Source: Azolla caroliniana (Eukaryota; Plantae; Polypodiophyta). From it: a stretch of 64,000 nt of DNA. Location of the stretch: contig JBHGNT010000012.1 of assembly GCA_043228905.1 (NCBI GenBank), positions 13,206,001 through 13,270,000 on the forward strand, written 5' to 3'. The notes beneath the pieces were generated by a model, which had not been told where the DNA came from, made no database searches, and was given only the letters and a program-made list of their open reading frames with translations. Shown one piece after another: positions 5,206-64,000 of this stretch. Numbering within the stretch: position 1 is the stretch's first letter; each line of letters starts with the position of its first letter. Both the position numbers and the translations under genes were made by a program.

Positions 5206-5216
5206 TGTTGTTGTAG

Positions 5217-24400: not shown

Positions 24401-27400
24401 TTATTATAAAACCAGGGATAACCCAATATTACATCGGTGGTACAAAGATTCATTACATGGAAGTCTACTTCCTCTATATAAGTATCAATAGAAATTCCTA
24501 ATGAATGAATCGCCCCGTTGATGTATTGTACTCTTCCATCAGCCAAGTGCACCGTGTAGGTGTGATCACTTACGGTAGGTTGGATTCCCCATATCTGAAC
24601 CAAACGATCATTCACAAAATTGTGTGAGCTTCCCGAATCAAATAAAAATTGTACGGGAGATCCATTGATATACCCGTTTGCACGTAGTAAATCATTGGGA
24701 CCCAATACATAGTGAGGGAAAGAACATTGACAATTACTTAAATGATGTCTATAGACCTGAAGGACATTAGGAATCTGACCTTTATGGTCTGCAGATTTAG
24801 CTTTGTTGTCGTGCTCTTTCCGTTGGAGCTTTCGACATTGATCTTTTGTATGACCCTTCTTTTTGCAGAATACACAAAAAGGATGTTGTCGCTTACAATC
24901 GCGATCCAGGAATTCGTTGGGTGTCTTGCGTATCCCAACAAATTGCGACTGCTTAGTCCCGGGCGCTTCGTTGGGTTTGTTATGGTCCTTCTTCGAAGTG
25001 CGTTGATAGCGAAGAACTATTTCAACGGCCTCTTCGAAGGATTTTGGATCCTTATTCCAGTGATAGTCCGAATTGGGGATGCCATTGACAAAACAAGCTA
25101 TCAACCAATTGTCCCCTTCTAGACCCGATTTTTTTATTTGGGTTCTAGCATGGTGAACATAGTCTTCTAGCGAGGAAAATTTCCTGCTAGAGAGGTTCAT
25201 TAAAGTTTGTGCTGCCTCGGTTTGAGAGGGAGGTTGCAGAAATTGGCCCTTAAAAACCGTGACAAAATCTGTCCATATATCGGGCAATTTCCCCATAGTA
25301 CCGAGGCCACGCCACCAGGCAGCGGCCTTACCCCCGAGTTCTCGGCCGACATATGCAATCTTCGTACTATCTGGCGTGGGATAGAGCTCAAAATGAGACT
25401 CCCATCGTCCCAACCATGTGCAGATTGCTTCTTCGGTTCTTTCCTTTTTGTCTCCCGTAAATGGCTTAACGATAAATGATGGTTCACCTTCTCGCTCATC
25501 AGGTCTATTAGTCTCATGCTGTAGACTAATGACACGTGCCTCAAGAGCACTCTGAGATTGCCGAAGTTCGGTCATCTGTTAAGCGGTGAAACTAAGGTAT
25601 TGGGTTATTTGTGCCAAATACATCTCTGTGGACATTTGTCCAAGAGGATTCCCTTGAGTTCCTTCCGCTTGAGCGGATGACATCGGGTCGTTAATTTGAG
25701 CCATTAAAAATTATTTCTGGAAAAGAAATAGGATAAGGTCAGAGATATAGTCATAACATCATGTCGTGATGTAAACATATCATGGGCGAGCATTAATTGA
25801 TATCATGATCTCACGTCATTACCCCTCTAGACGTATGAGATGAGGTTCAAGATCAGGTTACTATGGTAACACAAAGGTGTTTTAAAAACCATGGGGGTGA
25901 CAAATAAATGTCTTTCCCTTATCTCTATATCGATTTTTTCATGGTGGCTCCCCGAGGCTCAACCATGTATGTTCGCGTCATGAATAGTTTATACACGAAA
26001 AAAATGTTAATAATAAACTATGTTTCGGTGCCCACATATGTGGTTTCGGCTCTTTAAGTCCTATTACGAGGACCCCGAGGTGCACTTAGACCTTAAGTCT
26101 AAACATGTGTTATAGTCATATGTATCAAGGATGTTGTATGGTCTTGGTCATATTTGAACTCGAGACCTCGAGAACAAATACATTAAACACTTGAGCCAAC
26201 CAAGTAAGTTGCTCTTCTCGAATGCTTAATGTTTGATGTGTATAAGAGATATGCGAGATCATATATGTTTTTTTTCAAAGAACATATATGTCAAGGGTCC
26301 TTATTTACCAAAACTATGTTGGTACGTTACCTAACCTCAAGTCTCGTAATAACGATGGCATACGCCAAAGTGCAACCTAATGGTCAAGCCAAATCAGCCC
26401 TCGTTTCGTAGTAGGCTCACGTGGGCCATCACATGGTCACGTTATTACGAATGCCTCTCGTAAGAACGAGCTCATGGTGGCATCGTATCCATGTAACGAG
26501 GGAGGGATGTTGGATACGTGCGTCATTGGAGCGACCTCACTTGAAGTGGGTCAAGCCCTACGTACTCAACATCATTATGGCTATTGGCGTTTCTTTACGT
26601 AACGAAATCGAGGTCATCAACGGGGTTATCAACGATAAAAAATTGTTGAAAAAGGGATGGTGACAACGCCATTCTCACAAAAATGTGAGGACGGCCACCA
26701 ACATCCTTTTCCCGACAAGGACAACTTTCGATATAATCACGTAATAACGAATATACACATATGTTTACTTATCACATATATACGATCAAATATGTATATA
26801 TGTGACCACATATGCCTATATTAAACATATCGTTATATTAAATAGCCACAAATGATGTGATCGAGATACGTAATCGAGGTATATACCTCTACGCACACGA
26901 AACATCCACAAATAAGAGATCATCATAATACGCAATTGAGGTATTGACCTCTTACGCATACGAGACCAACTGCGTATCGTTTACAACAAATCAAGGTATT
27001 AAACTCATACGCAAACGTAACATATGTTCGTGAACGTAATACGTAATTGAGGTATTACCCTCGTACGCATACGACACTCATCACATATTATTAATATGTC
27101 AAACAAGGTATTGACCTCGTGCACATATGTAAACGTTTTAAATAATCAATTAAAGACCACTACAACATCATTGACTTAATGAAAAAAATTACATATAAAC
27201 TAAACACATGATTAGATGGGAGAAGAGAGAATAGAAAGAAAAATTATGGAAAGAGTTACCGAAGTTCTTTGTTGATCGTTGTCTGGATCAAGGCCAACCG
27301 CACAACGATCGATCAGCATCAATCAAAAGACAAATGAAAAATAAAGAAACATTAATACAAAAATCTGATACCAAATATTATAGATCTAGGTACTAAAGTA

Positions 27401-27830
27401 AGCTTAAGATAAGGATAAAGAAATGAAAGATAGAGAGCAGAAAGAGAAAGAAGGGTGCCGATCCACCCGACCACCCCCGAGCGAAGGGATCGAGACAGAC
27501 TCGAGCCTCGATCGGCGTCCCATACCACCGCCGTGGCGTCGAGTCGTACCTGGTGCTGGCGCGCTCGCTACAAGAGTTGACCCACCACACGAGCAGAGTC
27601 TCGATGTAGTCAAAAGATGATCCAATGAGGGTAGCTAGGCCTCTTATTTATAGCGATACCCAAGGCCCCCATGCAAGTTCACACTTGACCTAATGGGTTG
27701 TCTCAATCCCGAGGATTAAAAGTAATCCTCCCCTTCTTTACACTCTCGTTTAACCCTCACACTTATCCACGTGTATAGAATACTACGGTAAATTCTTACC
27801 ACGGGATATTATATGGTCATGCCCGTAACA
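21478..27830 (-). mobile_element. Gypsy chromovirus, RT-deleted non-autonomous copy
   Basis: 455-bp near-identical LTRs (21478-21932 and 27376-27830), TSD AAAGT, PBS TGGTATCAGA. Gag-PR about 25705-23990, RNase H 23396-23962, integrase and chromodomain (RILD...KW...ATWE) 21919-23280. No RT core. Confidence 0.93.
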
Positions 27831-30602: not shown

Positions 30603-33600
30603 TGTCATGAAGACAACATTTTGGTTATCCAGAATCGAACCCACGACTTCTTGGTCTATGTGTTGAACCCTTAACCATTGTAATAACATATATGTTGTGT
30701 GATTATAATAATTATGTTTCTAGTTATTACAAGATATTAGAATATTCTAGAACATTCTAGAACATTCTAGATTATTCTAGAACATCTTTTAATATTTCAT
30801 GATTATATTTCTTATCATAAAATCTAAAATATTCTAGAACATTCTAGATTACTCCATAAGGACCTATAAATAACTGTCTATACATTCGTTTCAACTCATT
30901 CGGTTCAACACTAGTCTTTAGCCCTTAGCCTACTCATTGTGATCTTGTTTCATCATAATATAATCTCATTTTTATTTCAAGTCTTATCTCTCTCTCACAC
31001 TCTCTCTCTCTCACGCACACACACACACACCCTCTCTCTTTCGTTCTCACTCTCACTCTATCTTCTACCCACGAGTCTCGACAGTTTGAACTGAATATTT
31101 CTGTTTCCTTTTCCAATAACCCTAGTAAGCTTTCTTCTTTTCCCTTCTTTCTTTTTCTCCCTCAGTTATGGAATCCGTCAGCAAGCAAGAGTATATGTGT
31201 GTCCTTTCTGAGCTCGACATGCTCACGACTAAGTTTGTGGCATTAGAGCAAGAAAATCATAGGCTACTTGGGGATTTACAACAAGTGAGTACCGAGAAAG
31301 CTCATCAATATAAGGAGTTATCACAACGGGTTCATCAACTCGAGGCTACTATATTAACATTACGAGAACAAGCGGCGGGGGTTCAAAACTCCCCAAGGGA
31401 ACCAAAGATTAGCCTCCCTGCCAACTTTGATGGTACCCGATCTTTGTTTTGAGGTTTCCTGAATCAAGTCCGTTTGGTGATTCAGTTACATCCCAATCGG
31501 TACCCAACTGATGCTGCTCGTGTGGGATTAATAGGAACCTTGCTAAGCGGTACCGCATTAGCATGGTTTGCACCACTTCTAGAGAAGAAATCACCATTGT
31601 TGGAGGATTTCGAGACATTCGTTAAAGAGTTTCAAGCTAGTTTTGGAGACACCGATAGCACTAGAATGGCAATAAACAAGATTCGAAGACTCTGACAAGG
31701 AGATTGTCCCGCTTCAGCCTACGCAGCAGATTTCCGTCTCTTGGCATGTGACATCCCTTGGGATAAGGCAGCCTTAATGGATCAATTTCGTTAGGGTTTG
31801 CGTAACGATGTCAAAGATCTTCTTCTTACTTTCCACGAAGATCCAAAGTCTCTTACAGAGGCCATTAGTCGAGCTGTGCGATGTGATAATCGCCTATTTG
31901 AGCGACGTTCTAAACGTCAACAAATGCTACGCCGTCAACTGGAACAGACGTATGCTTCAATAGTCGCAACACCACCACAAGTTCCCATACCCGTTACGAG
32001 GGATGGTCCCACTCCGATGGAAATAGAGTCAACACAACGTCGAGGGCCTTTATCAGATGCTGAGAAACAACGACGTCAGGCGCATCGCCTATGCCTCTAT
32101 TGTGGTGGTCCATGACATATTGCTATGAATTGTCCACATAAACCCAGACGACAAGTTTACCAAGTAAGTGTACATGACAACCCTACCATGAGTTCTACTA
32201 TCACTTCTAATAACTTAAATACTAAGCCTAATAACCCATGCCATGAGAATAAATTTGATGTCTTGAGCCAATTAGAGGATGTGTTAAACGAATAAGTCCG
32301 GCCAAAATAGGAGCCATTTGGTTGGAACATCCTAGATATGTAGAGTCTATACCTAGTTGTGGTTCCATTTCATCAAATCAAGTTAGTAGAGTTTTTTCTG
32401 CACAAGTCGAGCTTAGCACATCTATAGGTCATCGAGTCCTAGCCTCTGCCCTCCTAGATTCTGGAGCCAATTCTTGTTTCATGGATCGCGAGTTTGCATT
32501 GACCCAAAACATCATCTTGAACAAGCTCCCGAACCCAGTAGCTGTAGGAGTCATTGATGGTCACCCTATAGCATCAAGTGATATAGTCGAAGAGTCTGAA
32601 TCAATTCATGTAGTCCTAGGTAATTTGGCTAGTATCACCTCATTCAACATCATTAGTAGTCCAGAGCACTCTCTAGTTCTTGGTCTTCCTTGGTTTGAGT
32701 TACATAACCCAACTATTGATTGGAGAAAAAGAACTATTGAAGAGGTCATAGTACAGTCCGAGTCTCTTGAAACTCCAACAAAGGATCTAGGATCCCACAT
32801 GATTTCAACAATCTCTATACATCAGTTACGAGAGGATGGAAGGAAGGAAGACATGATGGTGTTTGCGGTTTTAGCAACTCCCTCATCTACCTCACAAGAA
32901 TTGGGGGTCCAATTACCAAAGAAGTACATAGAATTCTCCGATGTGTTCGATAAGGTGAAGGCTAATAGATTACCAGAGCATCGACCCTATGATTGCCCAA
33001 TTGATTTGCAGCCAGGAAAAGAGCCTCCATGGGGGCCAATTTATAAACTTTCGCCCACGGAGTTAGAGGTTCTTCGAGAATATATAGATGAGAACCTGGC
33101 AAATGGTTTTATCCAACATTCAAGATCTGCTGCTGGTGCACCCATCTTTTTCGTTAAGAAGAAAGATGGTACGCTTCGTATGGTCATGGATTATCTGGGC
33201 TTGAATAAAGTAACTATTAGAACCGATATGCTCTACCATTGATCTCAAGCCTTCTAGAACGCCTCAGTGGAGCAAAGTATTTCACGAAGTTAGATCTTCG
33301 AGGTGCCTACAACCTTGTTCGAATTCGTCTTGGGGATGAATGGAAGACCGCATTCCGCACTCGCTATGGTCATTTTGAATATACAGTGATGCCATTTGGT
33401 CTCACGAATGCACCAGCAATTTTCCAACATATGGCGAATGACATTTTTCGAGACTTCCTCGATATCTTCAATCATAGTTTACTTGGATGATATCTTGATC
33501 TACTCAAAAACTCAAGAGGAGCATGAGATACATGTTCGCCAAGTTTTGCAACGGTTACGAGAGTATGGTCTCTATGCAAAATTGGAGAAGTGTAGTTTCG

Positions 33601-36265
33601 ACCAGTGTCAAGTGGAATTTTTGGGGTACATAGTCTCTTCAAATGGCATCTCTATGGATCCATCAAAGGTTCAAACAATTTTGGATTGGCAAACACCACA
33701 GTCTATGCGAGATGTACAATGTTTTTTGGGGTTCGCAAACTTTTATCACAAGTTCATCAAAGATTATTCAAAGATTGTATTGCCCCTCACTCAACTAACG
33801 CGCAAGAATCAACCATTTGTATGGGGTATAGATGCGAACTCCGCATTTGAGGGTTTAAAGCAAGCATTTACATCTGCACCAATTTTAATGCATGTCGATC
33901 CAATGAGGCACTTTATACTTGAAGCTGATGCATCTAATTTCGCACTCAGAAGCGTACTATCCCAGATTGGTGAAGATGGCGAACTGCACCCTGTGGCTTT
34001 TCACTCACGGAAATTTGAAGCCGTAGAAATCAACTATGAGATTCACGACAAAGAGCTTCTTGCCATTGTGGATTCTTTCCAACAATGGCGTCATTTTTTG
34101 GAGGGTTCTTCTCAACAGATTATTGTCTTCAATGATCACAAAAATCTAACATACTTCCAAAGTGCTCGAGTCTTTCGGGAGCAGATTGCGACAAATGCAT
34201 TCGCCCAAGAGGTTTTGAGTCATATTATCCCAGATCGTGCTTCCAGCTCTCAATCTAAAAATCCTCGTCTAGACTACACCCAGTTCAATTGGCATGATGG
34301 TTTGCTTTTTCGACAAACTCTCTTGTATGTGCTTGACGGTCCTTCTCGACTCAAAGTCGTGCAACAATGTCATGACACGCCAATGGCTGGACATTTCAGC
34401 ATCCACAAGACTTTTGAGTTGATTTCTCGCCGATATTGGTGGCCACGGCTTCGCCATTTTGTTACGGATTATGTTCGTAGTTGTGATACATGTTGCCGAT
34501 CAAAAAAGCCTCGACATCATCCATATGGCCTATTACAGCCAATGCCTATTCCGGAGAGGCCCATGGAAATCTATTTCCTTGGACTTTATTACGGATCTTC
34601 CACCTTCCAAGGGATTTGATACTATTCTCACGGTAGTCGATCGTTTTACGAAGATGGCGCATTTCCTTCCATGCACGAAGACCATTAGTAGTCAAGAGAC
34701 AGCCGATTTACTCATGCGGGAGGTGTTTCGCCATCATGGTCTTCCGGATGATATTATCAGTGATAGGGGTCCCCAATTCATCTCGAAATTTTGGCAGCAC
34801 ATGTTCAAACTCTTACATACTTCTTGTAAACTCTCTTCCGGCTACCATCCAGAGACTAATGGGCAGAGTGAGCACACCAACCAAACAGTCGAACAATATC
34901 TACGTTGTTTTGTCAACTATCAACAAGATGATTGGGTGGAATTATTACATTTGGCGGAATTTGCTTACAACAACTCCGAACATTCTTCTACTGGCTATTC
35001 CTCATTTTTTGCTAACATTGGGTACCATCCTCATTGGACGATGCTTGAACATCCCGAACTCCCGAAAAACCCGACTGCTAAAGATCGGCTCACTCGACTC
35101 CAAGAAATTCAAGATATACTTTTGCATCATTTATGTGATGCCCAAAACACTCAAAAGAAGATTGTTGATCGTCATCGGCGTGATTCATCGACTACGTTTC
35201 AAGTAGGAGATCGTGTATGGCTCTTACAAGGTAGCATTAAAACCACTCGACCTTGCTACAAATTGGATTATCACCGTTTCGGCCCATATGTGATCTCTGG
35301 TAAGATCAATGATGTGACATTTCGTCTTGATCTCCCTCCTCATATGCGTCTTCACCCGGTCTTCCATGTTTCACTTTTGGAGCCCTACACAACAAGCTCT
35401 ATTCCGGGTCGTCTTACACCTCCCCCACCTCCAATCGAAGTTTCCAATGGCTCTGAATATGAGGTTGCTGCTATTCTCGACTCCAAGATCATCCGCAACA
35501 AACTATATTATTTGGTTTATAGGTTAGGTTATACACCTAATGATCGAACATGGGAGCCTGCCGAGCCGCAACAAACTATATTATTTGGTTTATTGGTTAG
35601 GTTATACACCTAATGATCGAACATGGGAGCCTGCCGAGCATCTTGTTAATGCCTCCGACATGGTTGTTGCATTTCACAACAAATATCCCCATAAACCAAG
35701 TCCGAACTCTTGTCTTCCAACTTGTGGAACTCGTCATCGAAAGGGGGGGATAATGTCATGAAGACAACATTTTGGTTATCAAGAATCGAACCCACGACTT
35801 CTTGGTCTATGTGTTGAACCCTTAACCATTGTAATAACATATATGTTGTGTGATTATAATAATTATGTTTCTAGTTATTACAAGATATTAGAATATTCTA
35901 GAACATTCTAGACATTCTAGATTATTCTAGAGCATCCTTTAATATTTCATGATTATATTTCTTATCATAAAATCTAAAATATTCTAGAACATTCTAGATT
36001 ACTCCATAAGGACCTATAAATAACTGTCTATACATTCGTTTCAACTCATTCGGTTCAACACTAGTCTTTAGCCCTTAGCCTACTCATTGTAATCTTGTTT
36101 CATCATAATATAATCTCATTTCTATTTCAAGTCTTATCTCTCTCTCTCTCACTCTCTCTCTCTCTCTCTCTCTCATTCTCTCTCTCTCACGCACACACAC
36201 ACACACCCTCTCTCTTTCGTTCTCACTCTCGCTCTCACTCTATCTTCTACCCACGAGTCTCGACA
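30603..36265 (+). mobile_element. Gypsy chromovirus, Tcn1/Tf1-sushi-like (element A), decayed
   Basis: LTRs 30603-31083 and 35754-36265, TSD ACTCT/ACTCC, PPT aaggggggga. Sushi/PEG10-like Gag (PKISLP..FDGTR), PR (LLDSGA), RT (YLDD), RH, INT and chromodomain. No tRNA PBS. Confidence 0.93.
30740..30848 (+). promoter_or_regulatory. Heat-shock element arrays (alternating nGAAn/nTTCn) upstream of the LTR TATA box
   Basis: gaa-ta-ttc-ta-gaa-ca-ttc-ta-gaa-ca-ttc-ta-gat-ta-ttc-ta-gaa at 30740-30782, a second cluster near 30826-30848, TATAAA at 30865. Confidence 0.75.
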
Positions 36266-39200
36266 ACTCCTAGATCAATGCTTCAGAACACTGAGGACAA
36301 TGATGGGACTAGGACAAGTGACTGAGTAGAAGAGAGCTGAACAAATAGTAGTACAAGGAAAGTCGAGACTAGCTCGATTGGACGAGCCGAAAAGGCGCAA
36401 TATACCTCATTTGAAATCCAGTCTATCATGCGAAGACAAAACACATTGAGGAATGATTTCATCATATCCAGGAGCTCATAACAGAGAAGAAACTCGAAGT
36501 TCGGAAGATCGACACCGAGGTGAACATCACTGATTGCTTGACGAAGCCACTCCTAGATCAACGCTTCAGAACACTGAGGACAATTATGGGACTAGGACAA
36601 GCGACAGAGTAGAAGAGAGCCGAACAAACAATAGTACAAGGAAAGTCGAGACAAAACACATTGAGGAATGATTTCGTCATATCCAGGAGCTCATAACAGA
36701 GAAGAAACTCGAAGTTCGGAAGATCGACACTGAATGCTTGACAAAGCCACTCCTAGATCAAAGCTTTAGAACACTAAGGACAATGATGGAACTAGGACAA
36801 AGGACTGAGTAGAAGAGACAAAGAGGGTAAATACACAGAAAAACTAAATTCAAAATACTGTGTAAAACTCTGTACATAGGATGTGCTTAGAGAGCGCTTT
36901 TATACAAGTCCATACGGATTGACGGAAGTACTGACACGTACTTCAATGCTCATAACTGAGCTCCTACACTAACTCCCAAATATATTCCCTCGCAGAATAT
37001 TTGTTCACCAACCTCCCGGTTTCCACACCGATCCAGCCTCTTGTTGCGCACCAGTTTACGCACCGATCCGGCCTAACCGATTGATCCAAATCAATCCAGT
37101 TCTCGGCTTGCACAGCCGATTCGGCCAATGTTGAGCTTGTATCTCAACACTCCCCCTCAAGCTCAACTTGAGGCTTTTCTGGTCTTTCGCTCCGGTTTCT
37201 CTTGGCTTCACGCCTCGCTCGCACTCCTCGACCCGTTCGATTCCGCGCGCCTCGACCCTTACGGTCGGCTCGTTTGCTCGTGCGGCCTTTTCCAGTTCCC
37301 TTGGTGTCACGGTGTTGGTGCCTCTTCTACATCCCTTTATTCTGCTTGGCCTTCAGTTGATTCGGTGTCTCCGAATCAAACATCCGAGCCGAATCGGCTG
37401 GCCCCGATTCGTCTTCGCTTTTTTCCGCATTGGCTATCTCCAATTCGTCCTCAATCTTGACCTTCTCACTCTTGTTGGCTTAATCTCCCCCATGTTTGGC
37501 TAGCTCCGGCTCCTTCTTTCAGCTGTTACCCTCTTGTCCGCTTCCAGACTCTTCTGTGGATCCGCCTTCGGCTTCTTCAGCCGACACTAAATCTAATTCG
37601 TCATCCGATTTGATGTCATGGTCACTTCCGCTCCTTTCCTGCTCCTTCCCGTGGTCTTGCAGGACTTTTCTCCCCCTCAAGTTCGGCACGTCAAGGTGCC
37701 GCAACCCAAGCGCACCCGAGAATTGCTACAACTTGTCTAGACCAAGGGGCTTGGTGAAAATGTCGGCGTTCTGCCGATCCGTCAAAACATACTGAAGTTC
37801 AACTTCACTAGAGAGGACACGCTCACGGACAAAGTGGTAGTGCAGCTCAATGTGCTTAGTCCGGGCATGGAAGATGGGGTTCTTCACAAGTTGGATGTTG
37901 TTGAGGTTGTCGCAGTAGATCGTCGTCGGACTGGACACCTCCACCTGCAGATCCTTAAATAACCGCTTTAGGCATATGGCTTTGCACGTTGCGACAACCG
38001 CTCCTCGATACTCAGCCTCTGTGCTCGACATTGCAACTGTCGGCTGCTTCTTGCTACTCCACACGATCGTGGCGCTCCCAAGGGAGAACGCGAATCCGGA
38101 TGTGGATCGGCAATCGTCGGGAATTCCGGCCCAGTCGACATCCGTATAGCCGACTAGCTGCGTGGCAGTACCGGTTCGATATAGTAGTCCCAGGTCCTTA
38201 GTGCCACTGACGTACCTGAGTACGCGTTGCGCTCTCTAGAGGTGCTCCTCGGTTGGCCGTGCCATGAATTTACTAATCAAGCCGACCGGGTAACTAAGGT
38301 CTGGTCAGGTGATAGTCAAGTATATGAGGCTTCTAACAATCTGTCGAAACCTTTTCAGGTTCCCTAGGTCCTTCATATCAAATGATGCCGCAAGCTGGAG
38401 ATTTACGCGGTCAATTTCACCTAGGTTGACGTCGGTGATGACCAAGTCATCAACATAAAGTAAAATACTAATTGGCCCAAGTCGACCTTGCCGAACAAAC
38501 AATGAAGAGTCTGATTTGCACATCGCAAATCCCATCCGACGCAACTGCTACGTGATCTTCGCATTCTAGGCACACGAGGCTTGCTTTAGTCCGTAAAGGG
38601 ACTTCTTCAACCGGCATACCACCGAAGTGTTCGTTCTAGAGTGAAATCCAAGGGTTTGTGCCATATACACTTGTTCCTCAAGCTCGCCTTGCAGGAAAGC
38701 ATTCTTTACATCCATCTGATGTAAGTGTCAACCCTTCGATGTAGCTACCGCAAGAAAAACAAGGACAGTCGTCATCTTCGAGACCGGCGCAAACGTCTCA
38801 TCGTAATCAATGGCATGTTGTTGCGCGTAGCCTTTTGCTACTAATCGAGCCTTGTATCGGTTGATTGAGCCGTCAGTGTTGTACTTGATCTTGTACACCC
38901 ACCTGCATCCAATTGGCTTTACACCCTTGGGGGCGTCAACCAGGTCGTTCATCTCTTCCTCCATGGCGGCACGCCAATTTGCGTCCTTTGCCGCTTCTGC
39001 ATAGCTCTCTGGCTCATGCAATTCCGCTACACGTGTCATGTATGCATAGTGATGCGCCATATACTCACTATATTCGAACCGCACAACGAGGTTCTTTTGG
39101 CGGGTAGATCGACATAATTGATCATTAGCCGATGTTGAGGCCGTTCTGGCCGACGCGGGCGTCTCTCCTGAAGGCCCTTCATCACTCTGCTTGGAGTCGG

Positions 39201-39276
39201 ATTCACGTCGATCCGACTCATCCCTATCCGTGCCGTACTCCGGCATCTTCTTCTTTCCATTTTCTTTACACGTAAG

Positions 39277-39723
39277 TGTCATGAACACATGACCATTATG
39301 GCGCCACCCGGACTTGAACCTCGAACCTTGTAATCCATACTTGAAAACCTCAACCATTAAGATAACTTATTGTTATATGAAACAATAAATGCTACTTCTT
39401 GTATTATATTGATTATTCTAAAAACTCTAGATTATTCTAGAATGTTCTAGAATGTCCTAGAGCATTCTAGGTCTAGAACATTCTAGAACATTCTAGAAAT
39501 CTCTAAGCTATTCTATAGGAACCTATAAATAAGGGCATACATGTATTCTCAAATAAATTCGAATCAACACCAGTCTTTAGCTCTCCTCATTACATATCTT
39601 GTATCCATTCTCTTTCTTTCTCTATCTTATACATCCATTCTTCTCTTAGTATTTGGTTCCTTTCTTCTCGTGTTCTCTAATATCCTTCTTCCATCACTCT
39701 ATCTTTTATCCTTGGTTCTGACA
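39277..39723 (+). mobile_element. Solo LTR of a Tcn1-like family related to element A
   Basis: TGTCA...TGACA, perfect TSD GTAAG (39272-39276 and 39724-39728), ttctagaa HSE cluster 39411-39500, TATAAA at 39524. Confidence 0.92.
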
Positions 39724-40197
39724 GTAAGCCGTCTCTTCGGCTTCCTGCGTGGGGAATGCACGGCCGAGTCTCCACTACTCGCCGGCTCTTCATCTGACTG
39801 GTCAAACCGACCTAGTCGCTCATTCGGTCCACTTAGCCGAAATGAGATCGAACTCTCTTCAAGAGTTCTGACTTCGCGTTCATCAGGAGGCATCTCAGCC
39901 TCACTGACCTCATCTTCAGAACTCGGATTGGAGTTGAGGTCCGGAGTCGGAGGCAAATACCAAGACGCAAACTCATCGAACACGACATCGCGACTTACGC
40001 GAGCTTGTTTGGTTCGGGGGATATAACACTTATAACCCTTTTGTTCATCCGAATAGCTGACCAAGATACACTTCTCGACTTTCGCATCAAGCTTCCTCCG
40101 CTTCTCCTTCGACACATGCACATACGCGATGCTACCGAAGACCCTCAAGTGTCGTAGATTCGACTTCCTTCCGAAGTACAACTCTTGTGCCACCACT

Positions 40198-43100
40198 TGT
40201 CAAGATTCGAACTCTTGACACGACATAGTTATAATCTAGTATTATGAGTTAACCAAGATATCTAGTACATAGTTATGTATGTAATTGATCCTTATTATTT
40301 TGCTAGCATCATGTGCATAGTTGCTCCCTTGTAGTATTTATACTTGGCACATGCATGCATACCTACATGCTCTATTGTAGATTCACATGCGTGCAACAAG
40401 TATGCATGCCATGTAGTATAAATAGAGGAGATCACCTTGAAGGAATTCAAGGTGAACAACACCAGTTATGGAGTCTTTCCTTTAATACTATCTTCTTTCT
40501 TGTCCATTTGGTTATCTTCTTGCTTGTCTCTTGAGCTTATGATCCGTGACAGTTTGTTCACCTTCCCATCCTCATAGCTCTCCCTCTCATAAGCCATAGC
40601 TATGTCCGACTCAACTAGTGAGTTAGGCCAAATAATGGTAGCCTTACAACAGCTATAGCTTGAAAATGAAGCTCTTCGAAATTCTTTACAAGAACTTCAA
40701 GTCGGTACCTCCCTATCCTCACAACCCCCGAACCCTAGTCTCCCACAACAACCTAGCCTAGAGCCCGATCTTCTACCAACATCTAGCCTAGCTTCGTCAC
40801 AGTTTCTTGAGCCTAAGGTTAGCCTCCCAGAAAAATTTGATGGAACGAGGTTGCGTTTCCAAGGGTTCATCAACCAAGTTCGACTTATCATTCGGCTACA
40901 ACCTCAACGTTATGGAGATGGTCTTCGACAAGTCGGCCTTGTGGGCACCCTTCTCTCCGGTCCGGCCCAAGCTTGGTTTGCACCATTGGTAGAAACCTCG
41001 TCACCTCTATTGGAGGACTTTCCCGCCTTCCTCGCCAAGTTAGAGGCCACATTTGGAGAGACGGACCGACGACGTACAACTCTTAACAAGATTTATGCAC
41101 TCGAACAAGGTTCGCGTGCAGCTTCGGTCTATGCTTCAAAATTTCGACAACTAGCATGCGACGTCAATTGGGATGATCAAGCTTTAGCTGATCACTTTCG
41201 GCACGGCCTTCAAAGCAATGTCAAGAATCTTCTCTTAAACTTTCCAGAGCCCACCTCGTTATCCCAAGCGATTTCACAAGCAGTCCATTGTGACAATCGT
41301 CTTTTCGAATTTCGCCAAGAAGAGCGCTGGACTTGGGTTCCACCTCATTCACTTCCACGCCACGCCCCGATCATACAACCCCAGGCATCCTCACACTCGC
41401 CTACTTTGGCAGATGCTCCTATCCCCATGGAAATTGATCAAGCCCGATTTCGGCCATTGACTGATGTGGAACGACAATTTCGGCGGGCTAATGGCTTGTG
41501 CATGTATTGTGGCGCCTCTGGTCATGTCGTTCGCCATTGTCCTAGGAGTACTCGCCCACAATTCCATCGAGCTAATGGACCCCAACATTCGGAAAACGAC
41601 ATCGTTCGGTTGCATGCAACTGGACATCTCCCGTCGCCCACTTTCTCTTGGTTCCATTGCCGAACCATCAGGCAATTTCACATTGGAGGTATGGATTTCG
41701 TTTAACTCTAGTTCCATTCAGTCTGTTGCTTTACTTGATTCTAGGGCATCTTCTTGCTTCATCGACGTCGCGTTTGCCCAAGCACATGGCGTACCTGTCG
41801 TTGGCCTCTCAAAACCCATTCCAGTTGAAGCCATCGACGGGTGCGTCCTCTCGTCAGGTGCAATTACTCAAGCTACAATCCCATTAGGGCTTTGGGTGGG
41901 CTCACACCAGGAGGAGCTCGCCTTTTACCTCATCGCATCTCCTCGACATCCGATCGTCTTAGGACTAACGTGGTTGGAGGCTCACAATCCAATAGTGGAT
42001 TGGTGCAACCACTCGATCACATTTAGCAAGCCAAGATGCTCGTGCCAAAGTATGAAGGTAAATTCAGTTTCCTATCCTTCGGAGACGGTCGACTCCGAAT
42101 TGACTACCCCATCATCGGTCCAGGATGGGTTTGTTTGTGGCGCCATTTCTAACACACTCCATGTTATACCCGAAAAATACCAACACTTCTCCAACGTATT
42201 TGAAAAATGTAATCCTGATCGTTTGCCTGAACACCGGCTCTACGACTGTCCGATTGATCTTCAAGAAGGTGTGTGTCCACCCTTTGGTCCTCTATATGCG
42301 TTGTCTGCACCAGAGTTGAAGGCCCTTCGTGTGTATCTCGATGAGAACCTCGAGAAAGGATTTATTCAACCTTCTAAGTCACCAGCCGGGGGCCCCATTT
42401 TATTTGTGAAGAAGAAGGATGGCTCTCTACGCTTATGTGTCGACTACCGAGGTCTCAACAAACTCACTGTGCGTAACCGTTATCCGCTACCTCTAATCCC
42501 CGAACTCCTTGATCGGCTCCGAGTTGCGCGTGTCTTCTCCAAAGTTGATTTGCGTGGAGCGTACAATCTAGTACGCATCAAGCCGGGGGATGAGTGGAAA
42601 ACCGCATTTCGAACACGGTATGGGCATTTCGAATACAAGGTAATGCCTTTTGGTCTTACTAACGCTCCCGCAGTTTTTCAACATATGATGAACGATATAT
42701 TCCGGGAATATCTTGATCTTTTTGTTGTCATTTACCTCGATGATATTCTCATTTTCTCGCCAAACATGGAGGAGCACACTCGCCAAGTCCGATTAGTTCT
42801 TGCCAAACTTCGCGAGCATGGCCTTTATGCCAAAGGCGAGAAATGCGAGTTCGATCGTACCTCGATCGAATTTCTGGGCTACATCATCTCGCCCACTAGC
42901 ATCACCATCTCTGTCATTCAGGCGTGGGCGACTCCAAGGCGACTTAAAGATGTGCAATCCTTCCTCGGCTTCGCGAATTTTTACCGTCGCTTCATCAAGG
43001 GGTTTTCCACCCTAGCACAACCTCTTATCGCTCTCACCCATAAAGGCACTCCATTTTTATGGACCTCGGAGGCGCAAAATGCGTTCGACTCACTCAAACA

Positions 43101-46011
43101 CGCATTCATCACTGCCCCGGTGTTGCTACATGCTGACCCCACAAAACCCTTCCAAGTCGAAACCGATGCCTCTGACTTTGCCATTGGCGTCGTCTTATCC
43201 CAGGCAGACGACAACAACCTAATGCACCCAGTGGCTTACTATTCCCAAAAATTTACGGCATCCGAAATCAATTATCCCATTTACGACAAGGAGCTTGCTG
43301 CTATCATTGTTGCCTTTGAAGAATGGCGACCCTACTTGGCCAGCGCACAACATCGTGTCCAGGTAGTGACTGATCATAAAAATTTAGTTTATTTTTCCAC
43401 CACTCATACTTTGAATCGAAGGCAGGCCCGTTGGTCGACATTTCTCGCCGACTACGGTTTGAGATCGTATTTCGACCTAGTGGCCAACATGGGAAGGTTG
43501 ATGCCCTTTCTCGCTAAGCTGACCTTGCACTCCGCCTTGGGGATGCTGCTTATGCTCAACAATCTAGACGTTTGTTGAAACCCGACCAATTGCATCTTTT
43601 TGCCTCTTGTATGTTGCAGGATGATTCTTTACTCCAACAAATCACTGATACATCCAAGACCGATACGTTCGCCAACGAGGTTCGAGATAGTCTGCAAAAC
43701 CCCTCCAAGGCGACCAAAAGGAAGGATCTTGACACCTTCACCATACAAGAGGGTTTGTTGTTCCGATATCATCTCTTATACGTCCCGGATGGCCCATGTC
43801 GCACCCGGGTGTTGCGGGAATGCCACGATGACCCACTTGCAAGTCATTTCGGGGTCATGAAAACCCTCGAGCTAATCTCTCGGGGGTATTGGTGGCCACA
43901 ACCATGGAAGTTGGTCAAAGAATACATAAAGAGTTGTGAGGTTTGTGCTCGCTCCAAAGCCATTCATCATCGGCCATACGGCTTACTACAGCCGCTTCCA
44001 TGTCCTCGTCGTCCTTGGGCCTCTATCTCTATGGACCTGATAACTGATCTACCCTTGGTCAATAGCTATAACTCGGTGTTGGTCATTGTCGATCGGTTTA
44101 CGAAGATGGCTCACTTCACTCCATGCTCCAAAACCATTTCCGGAGAAGGAATGATGCATCTACTACTCAACAATGTGGTACGCTTGCATGGACTCCCCGA
44201 TGATTAACAATCGGCAACGGTTCGGTTCGGTTCGGTTCGGTTTGAGAGGGTCCAAACCGAACCGGTTTGGAACCGAACCATTTAAAAATGTTGAAACCTG
44301 AACCGAACCGCGAAACCTTTAAACCGAACCGTTAAACATTTTTCAAACCGTTAAACCATTAAACCGTAAAAACCGCGGTTTCGTGGTTCAGTTTCGGTTT
44401 TCAACATAGGTCAAATTTATTTTATTTTATTTTTAAATTTATAATATTTCATTATTTAGAGTTTTTAAAATTTTTAAGATGTTCCTAAAATGTGAGAATA
44501 AGAGTAAAAATGAAAAGATTGTTTAAAAACAATTTTTAAAATTTTTTAGAATTTTTTTCAAAATTTTAATTTTTTTTAAAAAAATTAAAAAAATTAAAAA
44601 TTAAAAACCGTTTAAACCGTTTAAACCGAGGTTTTTGATTGCTGAAACCAAACCGAAACCGAACCGAACCGTTGAAACCGTTAAGCCGTTAAACCGCGGT
44701 TTCGCGGTTCGGTTCGGTTCAAACCGAACCGTTGCCGATTGTTACCGATGATGTCATCTCGGATCGCGGACCCCAGTTTGTCTCTCACTTTCGGCAATGC
44801 CTGCTACAAACTTTAGGCATCTCTGTCAAGTTGTCCTCCGCTTATCACCCCCAAACTGACGGGCAAACAGAGCGTGTCAACCAAATCCTTGAGCAGTATC
44901 TTCGGTGCTCGGTTAGTAACCAACAAGATGATTGGGTCAACTTACTTTCGCTCGCGGAATTCGCCTACAATAATTCTCTCCATGCATCAACTGGCGTCAC
45001 TCCCTTCTTTGCCAACTATGGTTTACATCCTCGCTTCAACATTTCCCTTCCTACCACTTCCGTGAACCCTTCGGTGGAGGATCGCGCCCGCATTTTGGAA
45101 GAACTACATCATGATTTATCCTTGGAGCTTAGTCTTGCTAGTGAACGATACAAGAAGCAGGATGATCGCCATCGATCTTCCACTCCACACTTTGTCGTTG
45201 GAGACATGGTCTGGTTGTTACGTCGACACATCTCTACTACTCGTCCATGTGCGAAACTTGATTACAAGAAGTTGGGACCATTCCGTATCATCGAGTGCAT
45301 CAATCTCGTCGCCTTCCGGCTCGCCCTTCCATTCCACTTCCGGATTCACGATGTTTTTCATGTCTCCCTCCTCGAACCCCATTATGCTTCACAACTCCCA
45401 GGACGTCAGGCCCCACCACCACCACCTGTGCAATTGACGACAGGGGAGGAATACGAGATCGACCAAATCCTTGACTCACGTTGGCACCGTCGACACTTAC
45501 AATACCTCATCCTATGGAGGGGTTACCCCATGTCTGAGGCCACATGGGAACCATCGGCAAATTTACAAAATGCCCCAGAGGTCATCCAAGATTTTCATCA
45601 CCGATATCCCCACAAACCAGCGGCGGATTTGGGAAGGCGGCGTAGGAGGGGGGATAATGTCAAGATTCGAACTCTTGACACAACATAGTTATAATCTAGT
45701 ATTATGAGTTAACCAAGATATCTAGTACATAATTATGTATGTAATTGATCCTTATTATTTTGCTAGCATCATGTGCATAGTTGCTCCCTTGTAGTATTTA
45801 TACTTGGCACATGCATGCATACCTACATGCTCTATTGTAGATTCACATGCGTGCAACAAGTATGCATGCCATGTAGTATAAATAGAGGAGATCACCTTGA
45901 AGGAATTCAAGGTGAACAACACCAGTTATGGAGTCTTTCCTTTAATACTATCTTCTTTCTTGTCCATTTGGTTATCTTCTTGCTTGTCTCTTGAGCTTAT
46001 GATCCGTGACA
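40198..46011 (+). mobile_element. Gypsy chromovirus, Tcn1/Tf1-sushi-like (element B)
   Basis: 354-bp LTRs 40198-40551 and 45658-46011 (2 differences seen), TSD CCACT. Gag about 40602-41705, PR-RT-RH 41464-43578, INT and chromodomain 43572-45688. No tRNA PBS. Confidence 0.95.
44205..44744. mobile_element. hAT-type MITE inserted in the integrase of element B
   Basis: TIR taacaatcggcaacggttcggtt / aaccgaaccgttgccgattgtta, 8-bp TSD CCGATGAT (44197-44204 and 44745-44752), subterminal aaccg repeats, AT-rich core. Confidence 0.93.
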
Positions 46012-48498
46012 CCACTTTTTTGCCGATCCGATTCTGGATGTAGACCGCGGTTCAGACCGCTTCGGCCTAATAGAACTTGGGCATGCTCTTTTCTTCCAAC
46101 ATTGCTCGTGCCGCTTCCACAACCGACCGATTCTTCCTTTCGGTTACGCCATTTTGCTCCGGCGTATACCTGAAACTAAATTCGCGTCGAATTCCCATTT
46201 GTTGCAGATAACTGTTGAATTGGCCGGAAAAGTACTCTTTTCTGCCATCTGATCGCAGGCACTTGATCTTCCTCCCTGTTTCCCTTTCGACAAGATTTTT
46301 GAGGTTCCAGAAACAGTCGAAGACTTCACTCTTCTTTTCGATGAGGTAGATTCATGTGTGCCAAGTGTAGTTGTCGATGAAGGAGACGAAATATTGACCC
46401 CTGCCAAGACTCATGTTCTATGTCGGTCCCCATACATCTGAATGTATCAAGTCGAGCTTATTTTGACTCCGATTACGCTCGTTGGGGAAAGGAAGTTGGT
46501 GTTACTTCCCTAGTTGGCAGGCTTCACAAATTTGGGCCTTTTGACCATTGAATTTCGGCAATCCGAACACAACTTGTTTCGATTGCAGGTCCGGAAGCCT
46601 TTGGTAGTTGACGTGGCCTATCCGCTTATGCCACAAATGGATATCAGACTCAACTTTTTGCCCTTTTGCGAACATGGCGGTGCCTATGTCACCACGATGC
46701 CTTCTTCCTTGCTCCTGTCGGCCGCCTCCATTGCACGCCGACTCGCCTCATCCACCACAACCACAGGACGGGGCCTATCTCCCTTTGTGTACAACATCTT
46801 GTTGTTAGCGTGCGTACTTGTCGACGTACCCGTGTGATTCTCCTCTACAAGGAGCATTGACTGCAAGTCGAAAAACGACGGTGTATTCTCCCTTGTACAA
46901 ATAATAGTTCGGAATGCTTCGTACTTCGACGCCAATCCTCCGTGGTAGATCTGCACCATTTCGCCCTCCTCAACATTCACATCGATGGAGGCGAGGGAGT
47001 CGCAGATATCTTTTATCTTGGAGGTGTAGTCAGCCACCGTCATGTCGTGTTGATGCACATTGCTCAACTTCTGTCGGAGTTGGCTTCCTGGCTGTGGTGC
47101 TTGCGGCGAAAATCTTTTTCAGATTTCCCCAAGCATCCTTCGGCGTACTTGCATCCCAAATGTAGCTCAAGAGTTGTTCGCTCACACAGGATGTGAAGCA
47201 ATAGAGAACTTTGCTCGCCGATTGTTCCCAGGCTAGGAAGTCTCTGTGTGTCGATTCGGGTGCTGCATCATTCGCTCCATCGACATAGCTCATGTATCCA
47301 TGTCCGAGCAGGTACTGGTGCATCTTGTACGACCAAGATGCATAGTTACTTCTGTCGAGCTTCTCAGTTGGAAGCAAACTAGTCATACCTCTATCCATTT
47401 TTTTCTTTCTGTTCTTCACCGAGATTAGGTTTTTTGTTTCAAGCTGAAGTCGGTTGTAGAGGTTCTCAACCCTCGCGCTTTGATACCATGAGAAATGTTA
47501 CATGTGGAAGCTATACGAAACAAAGAATACTGACAAAGAAAAACAGGTTTAATGGAGAGCTTAAGACACAATGTACGCGGGAGAGATAGAGAGGGTAAAC
47601 ACACTGAAAAACTGAAATCAAAATTATGTGTAAAACTCTGTACATAGGATGTGCTCAGAGAGCGCTTTTATACAAGTTCATAAGGACTGGCAGAAGTACT
47701 GACACGTACTTCAATGGTCATAACTGAGCTCCTACACTAACTCCCAAATATATTCCCTCGCGGAATATTTGTTCAATGGCCTCCCGGTTTCCGCACCAAT
47801 CCGGCCTCTTGTTGTGCACCGGTTTGTGTACCAGTTTACGCACCGGTTTACGTACTGATCTGGCCTAACCGATCAATCCAAACCGATCCGGTTCTCGGCT
47901 TGCACAGCCGATCCGGTGAATGTTGAGCTTGTATATCAACAAACACTGAGCGAGGATACTCACTAGAGAGGAAACAATCGAGGGGCGAATGAACCGAAGA
48001 TAGATTGAAGATTTAGTGAGGAGCACAGGAACGAGTGCATACAGAGAGCATACGATTGACCAAAGGATGAGAGTCAGAATTGGACATGAGCCGATCCAAA
48101 CAAACGAGCTGATTCGGACACGACACGATTCGAACTAGTCGATCCGACCAACTTAGACAAGCCGACCCAAACAACATACGATCCGGATAACTAACTAAAT
48201 TAGGCTAGATTCTGACTTTACCTCTACCAATTCGGCCATATTCCGTCTGACTTATAATTATACAATTGTAACTTTCGATTAAAATTGTAATCTAGGTTTA
48301 CGGGGGAGATAACCCTATATCACTGTATGTAGATAGAGTAGTCTTATGGGGGAGTTTGTTGGGCTAAAAGTCCCACTTGTATCCTAGTGTGAACACGTCC
48401 TCATAGTTAGGGCGAAGTTACCCTAACTATATAAGTGAGAGACTAAGCATTGTAAATGTGAGGTTCGAAGGTTAATGTAAGATAGTCTTCTTTGAGCA

Positions 48499-51476: not shown

Positions 51477-52271
51477 ATGGCGCGTCTAATGGTACTACTG
51501 CTGCTGCTGCTGCCACTAATGGTAATGTTGATTGCTACCTCATCAGCCACCACCGCAGGGCCGCCTGCCAATGTGACGGACATCCTGAGCAAGGCCGGCT
51601 ATTTCTCCACCTTCCTTAACTTGGCGTCGGCGGCGAACGTGAACGTGACTGCAGAGCTGCAGGCGTTCATCGACCGCAGCGGCACTAGTGGCGCCACCCT
51701 CTTCGTGCCGATAGACGCCGCCTTCACCCCTTACATCAAGACCGTCTACGGCAACCTGATAGCGGCGCAGCAGAAGGCGATCCTCCAGTATCACGCCCTC
51801 CCCACCTTCTACGACTACAGTACCCTCCTGTCCACCACTAGCAAATCGCTGTCCAACCTCTCCACCTTCGCGCCGGGCCTCAGCCTCAACATCACCGTCC
51901 ACACCGGAACCATCACCGTCCACGCCTCTCTCAACGCCGCCAATGTCACCAGCAACTACGCTACCTCCTTCCCCCTCACTGTCTTCGCCATCGACGCCGT
52001 TCTCCTGCCTTCCGAGGTCTTGGGAAACCTTGCACTACCCCCTCCGCCATCGCCATCGCCATCCTCTCCTGCCCCTTCCCCTGCCCCTACTACTACCCCT
52101 ACTCTATCCCCCACTTCTACGCCTGCACTCACCCCCCCCACTTCCTCCCCATCCTCTACCTCTAAAATATCCCCTGCTTCTGCTTCCTCTGCGCCTCCCA
52201 TGGCGGTGGCTTCTTCCGCGGCTCTCTTCTTCCCCATCCTGCTCTCCCTCCTCTTCTCCACCTATTACTAA
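51477..52271 (+). CDS. FLA: Fasciclin-like arabinogalactan protein, single FAS1 domain, GPI-anchored, 264 aa
   Basis: Signal peptide MARLMVLLLLLL, FAS1 H1 TLFVPIDAAF, LQYHALP, H2 VFAIDAVLLP, a P/S/T/A-rich AGP region and a hydrophobic C-terminus. GC-rich single exon. The upstream ORF extension is repeat-derived. Confidence 0.93.
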   Translation: MARLMVLLLLLLPLMVMLIATSSATTAGPPANVTDILSKAGYFSTFLNLASAANVNVTAELQAFIDRSGTSGATLFVPIDAAFTPYIKTVYGNLIAAQQKAILQYHALPTFYDYSTLLSTTSKSLSNLSTFAPGLSLNITVHTGTITVHASLNAANVTSNYATSFPLTVFAIDAVLLPSEVLGNLALPPPPSPSPSSPAPSPAPTTTPTLSPTSTPALTPPTSSPSSTSKISPASASSAPPMAVASSAALFFPILLSLLFSTYY

Positions 52272-55039: not shown

Positions 55040-56003
55040 CTATGGTCCCGGTGTATAGAGTGCCCCAGCCATGGCTTCTAGGTGGTGTAGCTCACGTTCC
55101 CTTACTTTCTTTATTGCTTCTACATCATGTCGAGTTGCTTTGAAACCCAACATCCGAGGGCGTTTGGTTCTTCTTTGATTTTTTGCTTCATCACGGAAAA
55201 GCCCGAGTGGTGCAAGTGTGTTGACATTCGATGTCTCCCCCTGTTCCTGAAAAACTTCATTGGTTACATGTTGGTAAACATTAGCAACATTATTGTCAAC
55301 ATTTTGTAACTTATTCTCTCTGTGTTGTTTCAATTCTAGGATGTATCTGCCTAATTTCTTTATATCTAGTGTATCTAATAGTTTAGGGAGGGTGGGAGGG
55401 GAACCAAGTATGTCTTGGTATTTTGCCCTTATCTCAACATAGGTGGGACATTTGCATGTAAAGTGGTACTCATCCTCTATCTCTATATGGCATAACCTAC
55501 ATATCCTTTCCTCCCTAGGGACTCCATTAGTACGTCCATTCTCAATCTCAAGTTGGTGAGATGTTATTCTAAGTTGACCAATGACAACCCTTAGTGCATG
55601 TGGTAAGAATACATCTAGATATTTTGGCCACGTAATAAAAGCTAACTTAGAGAAGTGCATGAAGTGTTCCTTATAGTACAACATTTTAGATGGGAGTGGC
55701 TCTAGTGGGGTGATCCATTTATACCGAGTATAAATTTGCCATATTTCTTGGCATATTACTTTATTGCGGTCCTCACGAGAGATTAAAGTGTTATCAATCG
55801 CGTGGTCGTCCTTAAGGGGGGGGGTTATTAATGTCTAGACCGTTCGCAAGAAGCCAACTCACCATCATGCCATACCATGAGCTAGTATAGCCGAACTCAT
55901 ATAGTGCTTGAGAGGCGTTAAAGGCTTGATGGGATATTCTATCATGTGGTTGGCTATGTATCCTGTGGATAAAGACTACAAGTTGAAAAAGTGCTTCTAC
56001 TAA
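55040..56003 (-). mobile_element. Non-LTR retrotransposon (LINE, RTEX-like) C-terminal remnant
   Basis: LRITSHQLEIENGR...PREERICRLC..IEDEYHF..KCPTY is a CCHC zinc motif typical of LINE ORF2 C-termini. Truncated by an LTR at 56004. Confidence 0.75.
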
Positions 56004-63682: not shown

Positions 63683-64000
63683 TGATGAGGAATAATCGTC
63701 ACTTTCCAAACTCCACCTCTCGGCCGCAACCAAAGAAACACACGAATCGTTGTTGCAGAAAATGGGAAATGCAGAAGTAATAGATGGACACGCGATTTAA
63801 CGTGGAAAACCCTGTACGGGAAAAAAACCACGGGAGTACAAGACTCCGAACCGAAACTATGCACAGAGAAGTATACAATGGCGAGCTGCAAGGCGACGAC
63901 CTTGAGCTCGCTGTCCTCGCCACAGGCGGCGGAAATACACAGAGGCGTCTACCTCTTCCTCTCTCTCACGCTCTATCTCTCTCTCTCTCACGGCTGCTCT
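63683..64000 (-). mobile_element. Copia-type LTR end, truncated by the window edge
   Basis: RT homology ends abruptly near 63682. Motif gatttaacgtggaaaacc...gggaaaaaaaccacggg resembles the solo LTR near 16694 and the Copia-2 LTR. Confidence 0.55.

What the first reader, a model, noticed from the sequence alone, without database searches (positions are those of the whole stretch)
40449..40564. Tf1-type self-priming in plant chromoviruses, with a testable prediction for a third family
Seen: neither element has a tRNA PBS. In element B, AAGGTGAACAA (40449-40459, 32 nt after the TATA start) is the exact reverse complement of TTGTTCACCTT (40554-40564), which lies 2 nt after the LTR. In element A, ATTCGGTTCAA (30898-30908, 33 nt after TATA) pairs with TTGAACTGAAT (31086-31096) with one G:U. 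Both have LTR+GT+11-mer and the context CAA|CAC. Solo LTR 39277 has ATTCGAATCAA|CAC at 39557, also 33 nt after TATA. Established: S. pombe Tf1 primes with the first 11 nt of its own mRNA. Inference: the same mechanism operates here, with co-varying primer/PBS pairs.
Basis: partly seen in the sequence, partly recalled or inferred. Interest (0 to 1): 0.75.

Follow-up and report, generated by a model that had tools for sequence, protein, structure and literature searches.

The report
Self-priming plant chromovirus retrotransposons
Three jumping-gene families in this plant DNA have no tRNA docking site; the 11 letters just behind their left repeat pair with a stretch inside that repeat, so they likely start copying themselves with the front end of their own RNA, a trick proven in yeast Tf1 and already predicted in print for the moss group to which they likely belong.

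Summary
Elements A and B are Ty3/gypsy chromoviruses with LTR+GT+11-mer complementary to a site 32-33 nt after the TATA start. Random 30-mers do this in 0 and 2 of 2000 trials. The prediction for the solo-LTR family came true twice. Public contigs leave the LTR end with GT-TTGATTCGAAT in 2 of 3 runs and a one-letter variant in the third. Contig L008 holds this LTR (79% identical), primer, PBS and RT on one molecule. Primer and PBS co-vary across relatives. RT-RH places A and B with fungal and vertebrate chromoviruses (100/99), apart from the window's tRNA-type family C. The idea is in print: Neumann 2019 predicted self-priming for 83% of 1500 plant Tcn1 elements, and this scan noted it twice on other moss DNA. 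Transcript start and cleavage are untested. Not found in my searches: tRNA-like A/B-box motifs, antisense, at the start of all five such LTRs here. Verdict: real, new members of a known kind.

The parts
40198..40551 (+). Element B 5' LTR (TG...CA, 354 bp); TSD CCACT at 40193-40197
40417..40424 (+). B TATA box
40449..40459 (+). B predicted self-primer AAGGTGAACAA, followed by CACCAGTT (unpaired C, then second stem)
40552..40564 (+). B GT linker and PBS TTGTTCACCTT
40602..45657 (+). B gag and pol (PR, RT, RH, IN, chromodomain) in overlapping frames; broken by a stop early in gag, a break between RH and IN, and a MITE; PPT at the end
44205..44744 (.). hAT-type MITE (TIRs, 8-bp TSD CCGATGAT) inserted in the B integrase
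45658..46011 (+). Element B 3' LTR; TSD CCACT at 46012-46016
30603..31083 (+). Element A 5' LTR (481 bp)
30898..30908 (+). A predicted self-primer ATTCGGTTCAA, 33 nt after the TATA start at 30865
31084..31096 (+). A GT linker and PBS TTGAACTGAAT (one G:U)
31168..35753 (+). A gag-pol with several stops and frameshifts; chromodomain partly duplicated; PPT
35754..36265 (+). Element A 3' LTR
39277..39723 (+). Solo LTR of a third family (447 bp, TSD GTAAG), inside a minus-strand copia element
39557..39567 (+). Solo-LTR predicted self-primer ATTCGAATCAA; the matching PBS was found in relatives
30632..30677 (-). tRNA-like A-box...B-box motif, antisense, in U3 of the A 5' LTR (also at 35783-35828)
39311..39356 (-). 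Same antisense A-box...B-box motif in the solo LTR
40204..40255 (-). Same antisense motif in the B 5' LTR (also at 45664-45715)

Best explanation
A, B and the solo-LTR family are Ty3/gypsy chromoviruses of the fungal/vertebrate (Tf1/sushi-like) cluster, likely the plant Tcn1 clade, whose PBS pairs with a site in their own LTR, and they likely prime minus-strand synthesis with the first 11-12 nt of their own transcript. Shown: no tRNA-type PBS; an 11-bp complement 31-33 nt after the TATA start; co-variation between families; and the tree position. Predicted by folding: the primer:PBS helix continues past one unpaired C (nt 12) into AC:GU pairs with the linker and GUY:RAC pairs with the LTR end. 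Inferred from Tf1 and untested here: transcription starts at the first base of the primer; RT/RNase H cuts after nt 11; and the freed 3' end is extended through the GT linker into U5 and R.
For: Exact, sharply bounded duplexes, with chance 0 and 2 of 2000. Leader folds give pairing probabilities of 0.59-1.0 at all 11 positions for A, B, L003 and L008; the B leader has z = -2.8. The prediction held: loose ends behind LTR+GT read TTGATTCGAAT in runs X1 (6 records) and X5 (9 records), while ends directly behind the LTR share no sequence (agreement 0.43-0.46). L008 has the solo-type LTR (78.7% over all 447 nt), primer, PBS and RT on one contig. Co-variation: each primer pairs 11 of 11 with its own PBS and 4-10 of 11 with PBSs of other primer types. 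L009 (sister of A) has a 12-bp pair, one base longer on both sides. L003 has a U-A pair where A, L008 and L009 have C-G in the second stem. The 3' LTR primer site of L011 reads ACTCTCGTCAA and its PBS reads TTAACGAGAGT, 10 of 11 complementary by inspection. Fourteen of 82 fetched loci show a TATA-linked 10-11-bp pair behind ACA+GT/GA. Tree: A and B lie in a 100/99 clade with all 11 fungal and vertebrate rows, and tRNA-type family C lies outside. Literature: Tf1 mechanism (PMC7175516) and Tcn1 83% self-priming (PMC6317226 supplement).
Against: There is no transcript start, cleavage or cDNA evidence. Run X4 gives TTGATTCAAAT (9 records), which would mispair with the solo primer at one place; it sits at a CpG and was not phased with its own primer. 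The A leader as a whole is not unusually stable (z = -1.4, 17 of 200 shuffles). The third duplex of the Tf1 'pretzel' is supported only in B (2 of 300 shuffles) and not in A, L008 or L003 (77, 184 and 259 of 300). Two loci with clear LTR pairs, L070 and L079, gave only 8 and 7 bp. In L015 the duplex is lost when 60 more bases are folded. No named Tf1 or Tcn1 reference was in the tree, and the host was not identified.
Confidence: 0.88

Rival explanations
1. A host tRNA, half-tRNA or tRNA fragment primes, and the LTR complement is a leftover or a structural helper.
For: The solo-family primer, and those of some fungal-type relatives (L015, L050), resemble the T-loop of tRNA (recalled consensus, no call), so a tRNA could touch the PBS. 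No host tRNA set was available to exclude fragments.
Against: There is no TGG within 0-5 nt of the LTR end. The PBS differs between related families and always follows the family's own LTR site, including a matched length change. Family C and the copia at 7887 in the same window show the ordinary TGGTATCAGA site.
Confidence: 0.05
2. The pairing is a leader structure kept for packaging, dimerisation or translation control; the transcript starts elsewhere and the primer is something else.
For: The transcript start is inferred only from TATA spacing. The helix extends into a second stem, so structure as such is conserved.
Against: The 3' end of the paired tract is fixed at CAA|C and the PBS is fixed 2 nt behind the LTR. 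The 5' end lies 31-35 nt after the TATA start in the relatives that show the pair, which is the geometry of a primer. No other primer site is evident.
Confidence: 0.06
3. Chance complementarity in AT-rich LTRs.
For: These LTRs contain palindromic TTCTAGAA runs that give spurious pairs (L008 hits at 2727-2728).
Against: 0 and 2 of 2000 random trials, none TATA-linked; a prediction made in advance was met.
Confidence: 0.01

Closest known systems
Plant Tcn1 chromoviruses (REXdb; Neumann et al. 2019, PMC6317226; Novikova et al. 2010, PMC2864245)
   Same: No tRNA PBS and a predicted self-primer (83% of 1500 elements), 5-bp TSD, overlapping gag/pol frames, chromodomain with aromatic cage, and grouping with non-plant Tf1/sushi elements.
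   Different: The passages I read give no transcript-start geometry, co-variation or second stem; per-element PBSs are in a file too large to read. Novikova 2010 found no PBS for SM-Tcn1. B without its MITE is about 5.27 kb, just under the listed range of 5466-9444 bp.
Tf1/Tf2 of Schizosaccharomyces pombe, with Tj1 and Tosmo1-3 (Tf1/sushi group)
   Same: An 11-nt self-primer complementary to a PBS behind the 5' LTR, a chromodomain integrase, and a duplex next to the PBS on the U5 side.
   Different: Tf1 priming is shown by experiment (cut between bases 11 and 12); here it is inferred. The third 'pretzel' duplex is supported only in B. Primer sequences are family-specific and 11-12 nt long.
TAR lineage of Ty1/copia (Houba, Osr-1)
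   Same: Predicted self-priming in plants (89% of 203 elements).
   Different: Copia domain order and a different lineage; A and B have the gypsy order RT-RH-IN-CHD.

Membership tests
Tf1/sushi self-priming group | No PBS complementary to a tRNA 3' end | tested here: met
   No TGG 0-5 nt after the 5' LTR in A, B, L003, L008, L009; half-tRNAs and fragments were not screened
Tf1/sushi self-priming group | About 11-nt LTR tract complementary to the sequence just behind the 5' LTR | tested here: met
Tf1/sushi self-priming group | [quoted passage not shown] | not testable with these tools
   No RNA holder listed; TATA spacing of 31-35 nt is compatible
Tf1/sushi self-priming group | RNase H cut after nt 11 frees the primer | not testable with these tools
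   RT and RNase H domains are present; nt 12 is an unpaired C in folds
Tf1/sushi self-priming group | Three-duplex 'pretzel' leader | tested here: inconclusive
   Second duplex predicted in A, B, L003, L008 and L009; third duplex beats shuffles in B only, 1 of the 4 in-clade leaders tested
Tf1/sushi self-priming group | RT-RH in the fungi/vertebrates chromovirus cluster | tested here: met
   100/99 clade with all 11 fungal and vertebrate rows (44 rows chosen from the 134); rows are named by host only
Plant Tcn1 clade (REXdb) | Chromodomain with aromatic cage | tested here: met
   Pfam Chromo in A and B. B shows Y...W..Y. In A the W is in the second copy of a duplicated piece. Cage positions as in PMC3350952, matched by eye
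Plant Tcn1 clade (REXdb) | 5-bp TSD; gag and pol in overlapping frames | tested here: met
   TSDs CCACT, GTAAG and ACTCT/ACTCC; B ORFs 40659-41705 and 41461-43578 overlap
Plant Tcn1 clade (REXdb) | Clusters with named Tcn1 references (Cryptococcus Tcn1, PpatensLTR2, SM-Tcn1) | not testable with these tools
   No such named protein among the 240 hits listed; REXdb fasta too large to read
Plant Tcn1 clade (REXdb) | Host is a moss or club-moss | tested here: inconclusive
   The host fasciclin gene hits angiosperm FLAs at only 31-35%, and leaf and plant metagenomes hold parts of the stretch. A plant, probably non-seed; not identified

The most novel reading that the evidence does not exclude
Beyond self-priming, this plant chromovirus clade carries a second design element: a tRNA-derived Pol III internal promoter (A box and B box at tRNA spacing) in antisense at the very start of U3, kept in LTRs that are otherwise barely alignable. 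It would bind TFIIIC and act as a chromatin barrier, or as an outward antisense promoter, that keeps the self-priming transcript start usable after chromodomain-guided insertion into heterochromatin.
Probability: 0.3. Interest if true: 0.6.

Novelty: new member of a known kind. Interest (0 to 1): 0.3.

Why it matters
Self-priming in plant Tcn1 elements rests on a bulk blastn prediction (PMC6317226). This locus adds a prediction made in advance and met, co-varying primer/PBS pairs of 11-12 nt with a fixed 3' end, and exact positions at which one 5' RACE or an in vitro RNase H assay would test the mechanism in a plant. The concept itself is not new. The antisense A/B boxes in U3 would matter more if they prove functional.

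Tried and rejected
No whole genome is held, so copies could not be counted or phased. No RNA holder listed. The first read-laying over 1.5 kb was swamped by the flanking copia and did not show the LTR end; the narrow second call did (18 of 48 loose-end rows shown). Viral contigs gave 3 distant loci only. The host gene search did not name a close relative, and neither RT search listed a moss, Cryptococcus or Selaginella protein among 240 rows. Automatic LTR-end calling gave 10 of 21 loci with at least 10 bp. Four of the 11 misses (L009, L020, L044, L058) were wrong ends and were positive; L070 and L079 stayed negative. One search gave hits in 22 of 82 loci. I counted 14 and set aside 8 (L005, L011 at 9161, L026, L042, L052, L057, L063, L076) with other linkers or inside inverted repeats. 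I did not count how many of the other 60 hold an LTR-PBS junction at all. The L011 row used wrong coordinates and is replaced. Element A's RT was misaligned across frameshifts and redone. Rfam gave no tRNA match (E up to 10) over the U3 regions, and ARAGORN found no tRNA in the window, so the U3 motif is not a cloverleaf; Rfam's miRNA hits there come from the TTCTAGAA palindromes and are far below threshold. The primary Levin papers and the Esnault and Levin review are not held; Tf1 facts come from citing papers. Searches for a description of A/B boxes in chromovirus LTRs (listings only) and among this scan's notes showed none; that is weak evidence of absence.

Full report
Observation. The five 11-mers, the three TATA distances (32, 33, 33 nt) and the 2-nt GT linker are as stated. 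Element B spans 40198-46011, with LTRs that differ at 2 of 354 positions and TSD CCACT. Element A spans 30603-36265 with TSD ACTCT/ACTCC. The solo LTR is 39277-39723 with TSD GTAAG. B and the solo LTR sit inside a minus-strand copia element. A and B have the gypsy order gag-PR-RT-RH-IN-chromodomain. Both are broken: A by stops and frameshifts, B by a stop early in gag, a break between RH and IN, and a 540-bp MITE in the integrase. Neither has TGG within 0-5 nt of the LTR end. In the same window, gypsy family C and the copia at 7887 carry TGGTATCAGA behind their LTRs; that this is the tRNA-Met site is recalled knowledge. Random 30-mers from the elements' interiors gave an 11-bp duplex with the LTR in 0 (A) and 2 (B) of 2000 trials, and never near a TATA.

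The prediction. No genome is held, so I used public assemblies. Contigs from three runs of three studies were laid on the last 69 bases of the solo LTR plus its flank. Records that leave directly at the LTR end share no sequence (agreement 0.43-0.46). Records that leave after the next GT read TTGATTCGAAT in X1 (6 records) and X5 (9 records), and TTGATTCAAAT in X4 (9 records); 18 of 48 rows were shown. One of these runs may be the window's own source. Independently, metagenome contig L008, fetched by RT similarity, holds an LTR 78.7% identical to the solo LTR over its full length. The X4 variant lies at a CpG and may be decay in dead copies; it was not phased.

Co-variation and structure. In the clade around A and B the primers differ: AAGGTGAACAA (B, L003; L001 shows the primer but the contig ends before a PBS), ATTCGGTTCAA (A), ATTCCGGTTCAA (L009; L006 is a 3' LTR without a PBS), ATTCGAATCAA (solo, L008) and ACTCTCGTCAA (L011 3' LTR; its PBS is complementary at 10 of 11 by inspection, and its 5' LTR copy gives 8 pairs, 2 G:U and 1 mismatch). 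Each of A, B, L008, L003 and L009 pairs 11 of 11 with its own PBS and 4-10 of 11 with PBSs of other primer types. All end in CAA followed by C. Folding gives the primer:PBS pairs probabilities of 0.59-1.0 in A, B, L003 and L008. It extends the helix past an unpaired C12 into AC:GU with the linker and GUY:RAC with the LTR end, where L003 has U-A in place of C-G. The third duplex of the Tf1 'pretzel' beats shuffles only in B, 1 of the 4 in-clade leaders tested. Among all 82 loci, 22 gave a TATA-linked pair of at least 10 nt; I count 14 with the ACA+GT/GA junction and set 8 aside. L070 and L079 have clear LTR pairs and no such duplex.

Placement. A 44-row IQ-TREE of RT-RH, chosen from the 134 rows of a FastTree run, puts A and B in a 100/99 clade with all 11 fungal and vertebrate rows. 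Seed-plant and algal rows and family C lie outside. Rows are labelled by host only; no Tf1, sushi or Tcn1 reference was at hand. The chromodomain of B has the three cage aromatics (positions as in PMC3350952). The host is a plant by its fasciclin-like arabinogalactan gene, whose named hits are angiosperm proteins at 31-35% identity. A non-seed plant is likely but is not shown.

Mechanism. Shown: the missing tRNA site, the complement, its position, its co-variation and the tree position. [quoted passage not shown] No RNA data were available. I give this 0.88. tRNA-fragment priming, a non-priming leader structure and chance share the rest.

What is known. Neumann et al. 2019 state that most plant Tcn1 elements lack tRNA PBSs and are predicted to self-prime, by blastn for a complement of at least 10 bp starting 0-5 bp behind the LTR (PMC6317226, passages). 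Their Additional file 5, read whole, gives 83% of 1500 elements, a 5-bp TSD, mostly overlapping gag/pol frames and a chromodomain in all. Additional files 1 and 3 were too large to read and may already list these primers. Novikova et al. 2010 found no PBS in SM-Tcn1 (PMC2864245, passages). The pretzel description comes from passages of bioRxiv 10.1101/2022.12.06.519325 (figure not seen). Tj1 comes from passages of PMC4600332; passages of PMC3601003 were also seen. The Levin papers were not held. This scan noted the same kind twice on other moss DNA. The finding is therefore real and well supported, but it adds new members to a kind already predicted in print.

A side feature. All five LTRs of these families in the window start with an antisense TGGTTRR...RGTTCRANYY motif at tRNA-like spacing: 5 matches in the window, all in these LTRs, against 0.03 expected. 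That pattern was written after seeing the sequences, so the chance figure is too favourable. The B-box test was written before I saw further relatives. It matched L001 and L009 and missed L003, L006 and L011; the other 11 LTR starts tested had no match. In the alignment of 7 LTR starts, GTTC-A is invariant while the spacer is not. Rfam and ARAGORN see no tRNA, so it is at most a promoter remnant. That A and B boxes bind TFIIIC and can act as barriers is recalled knowledge. Three literature listings showed no description of it. I rate a functional role at 0.3.

Verdict: observation confirmed; interpretation supported; new member of a known kind; interest 0.3.

Noticed in passing
window 30632-30677, 35783-35828, 39311-39356, 40204-40255, 45664-45715 (all minus strand); L008 2619-2663, L009 4061-4105; B box only in L001 near 4160: Antisense tRNA-like A-box/B-box motif at the start of U3 in LTRs of both the A and B subclades; absent from L003 and L011, degenerate in L006. 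Possible TFIIIC or Pol III element.
   Followed up: partly
L002 77-134: A similar A-box/B-box stretch lies in sense orientation just before a truncated gag and matches A's U3 in reverse (77%): an inverted LTR piece or a tRNA-type SINE.
   Followed up: no
window 44205-44744: 540-bp MITE with long TIRs and an 8-bp TSD (hAT type) inside the integrase of the very young element B, so recently mobile.
   Followed up: partly
window 21470-27830, 56002-57422, 57584-63683, 6435-6876: Gypsy family C: several copies with an LTR+TT+TGGTATCAGA site and a chromodomain; its RT lies on a long branch among the algal and seed-plant rows with no close relative fetched. One copy has an inverted duplication (61888-62416 and 63155-63683).
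   Followed up: partly
window 30727-30850 and 39429-39504; L008 2720-2830: Tandem TTCTAGAA palindromes (heat-shock-element-like, recalled) just upstream of the TATA box in the A and solo LTR families.
   Followed up: no
window 36814-47941 (minus strand): The copia element hosting B and the solo LTR has no TGG site behind its apparent 5' LTR end; a half-tRNA type site is possible but was not tested.
   Followed up: no
window 51480-52271: Single-exon fasciclin-like arabinogalactan protein gene with a signal-peptide-like start, a Pro/Ser/Thr tract and a hydrophobic C-terminus; only 29-35% identical to its listed hits.
   Followed up: partly
window 14350-15870: AT-rich satellite built from TAGCTAATTAGCTA-like palindromic units; a related short patch lies near 5050-5210.
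   Followed up: no
window 35493-35639: 73-bp tandem duplication inside A's chromodomain; the first copy has R where the second has the cage W.
   Followed up: partly
window 1-4940 (minus strand): A further, more distant gypsy element (RT-RH 32-41% identical to B); its LTR and PBS were not defined.
   Followed up: no
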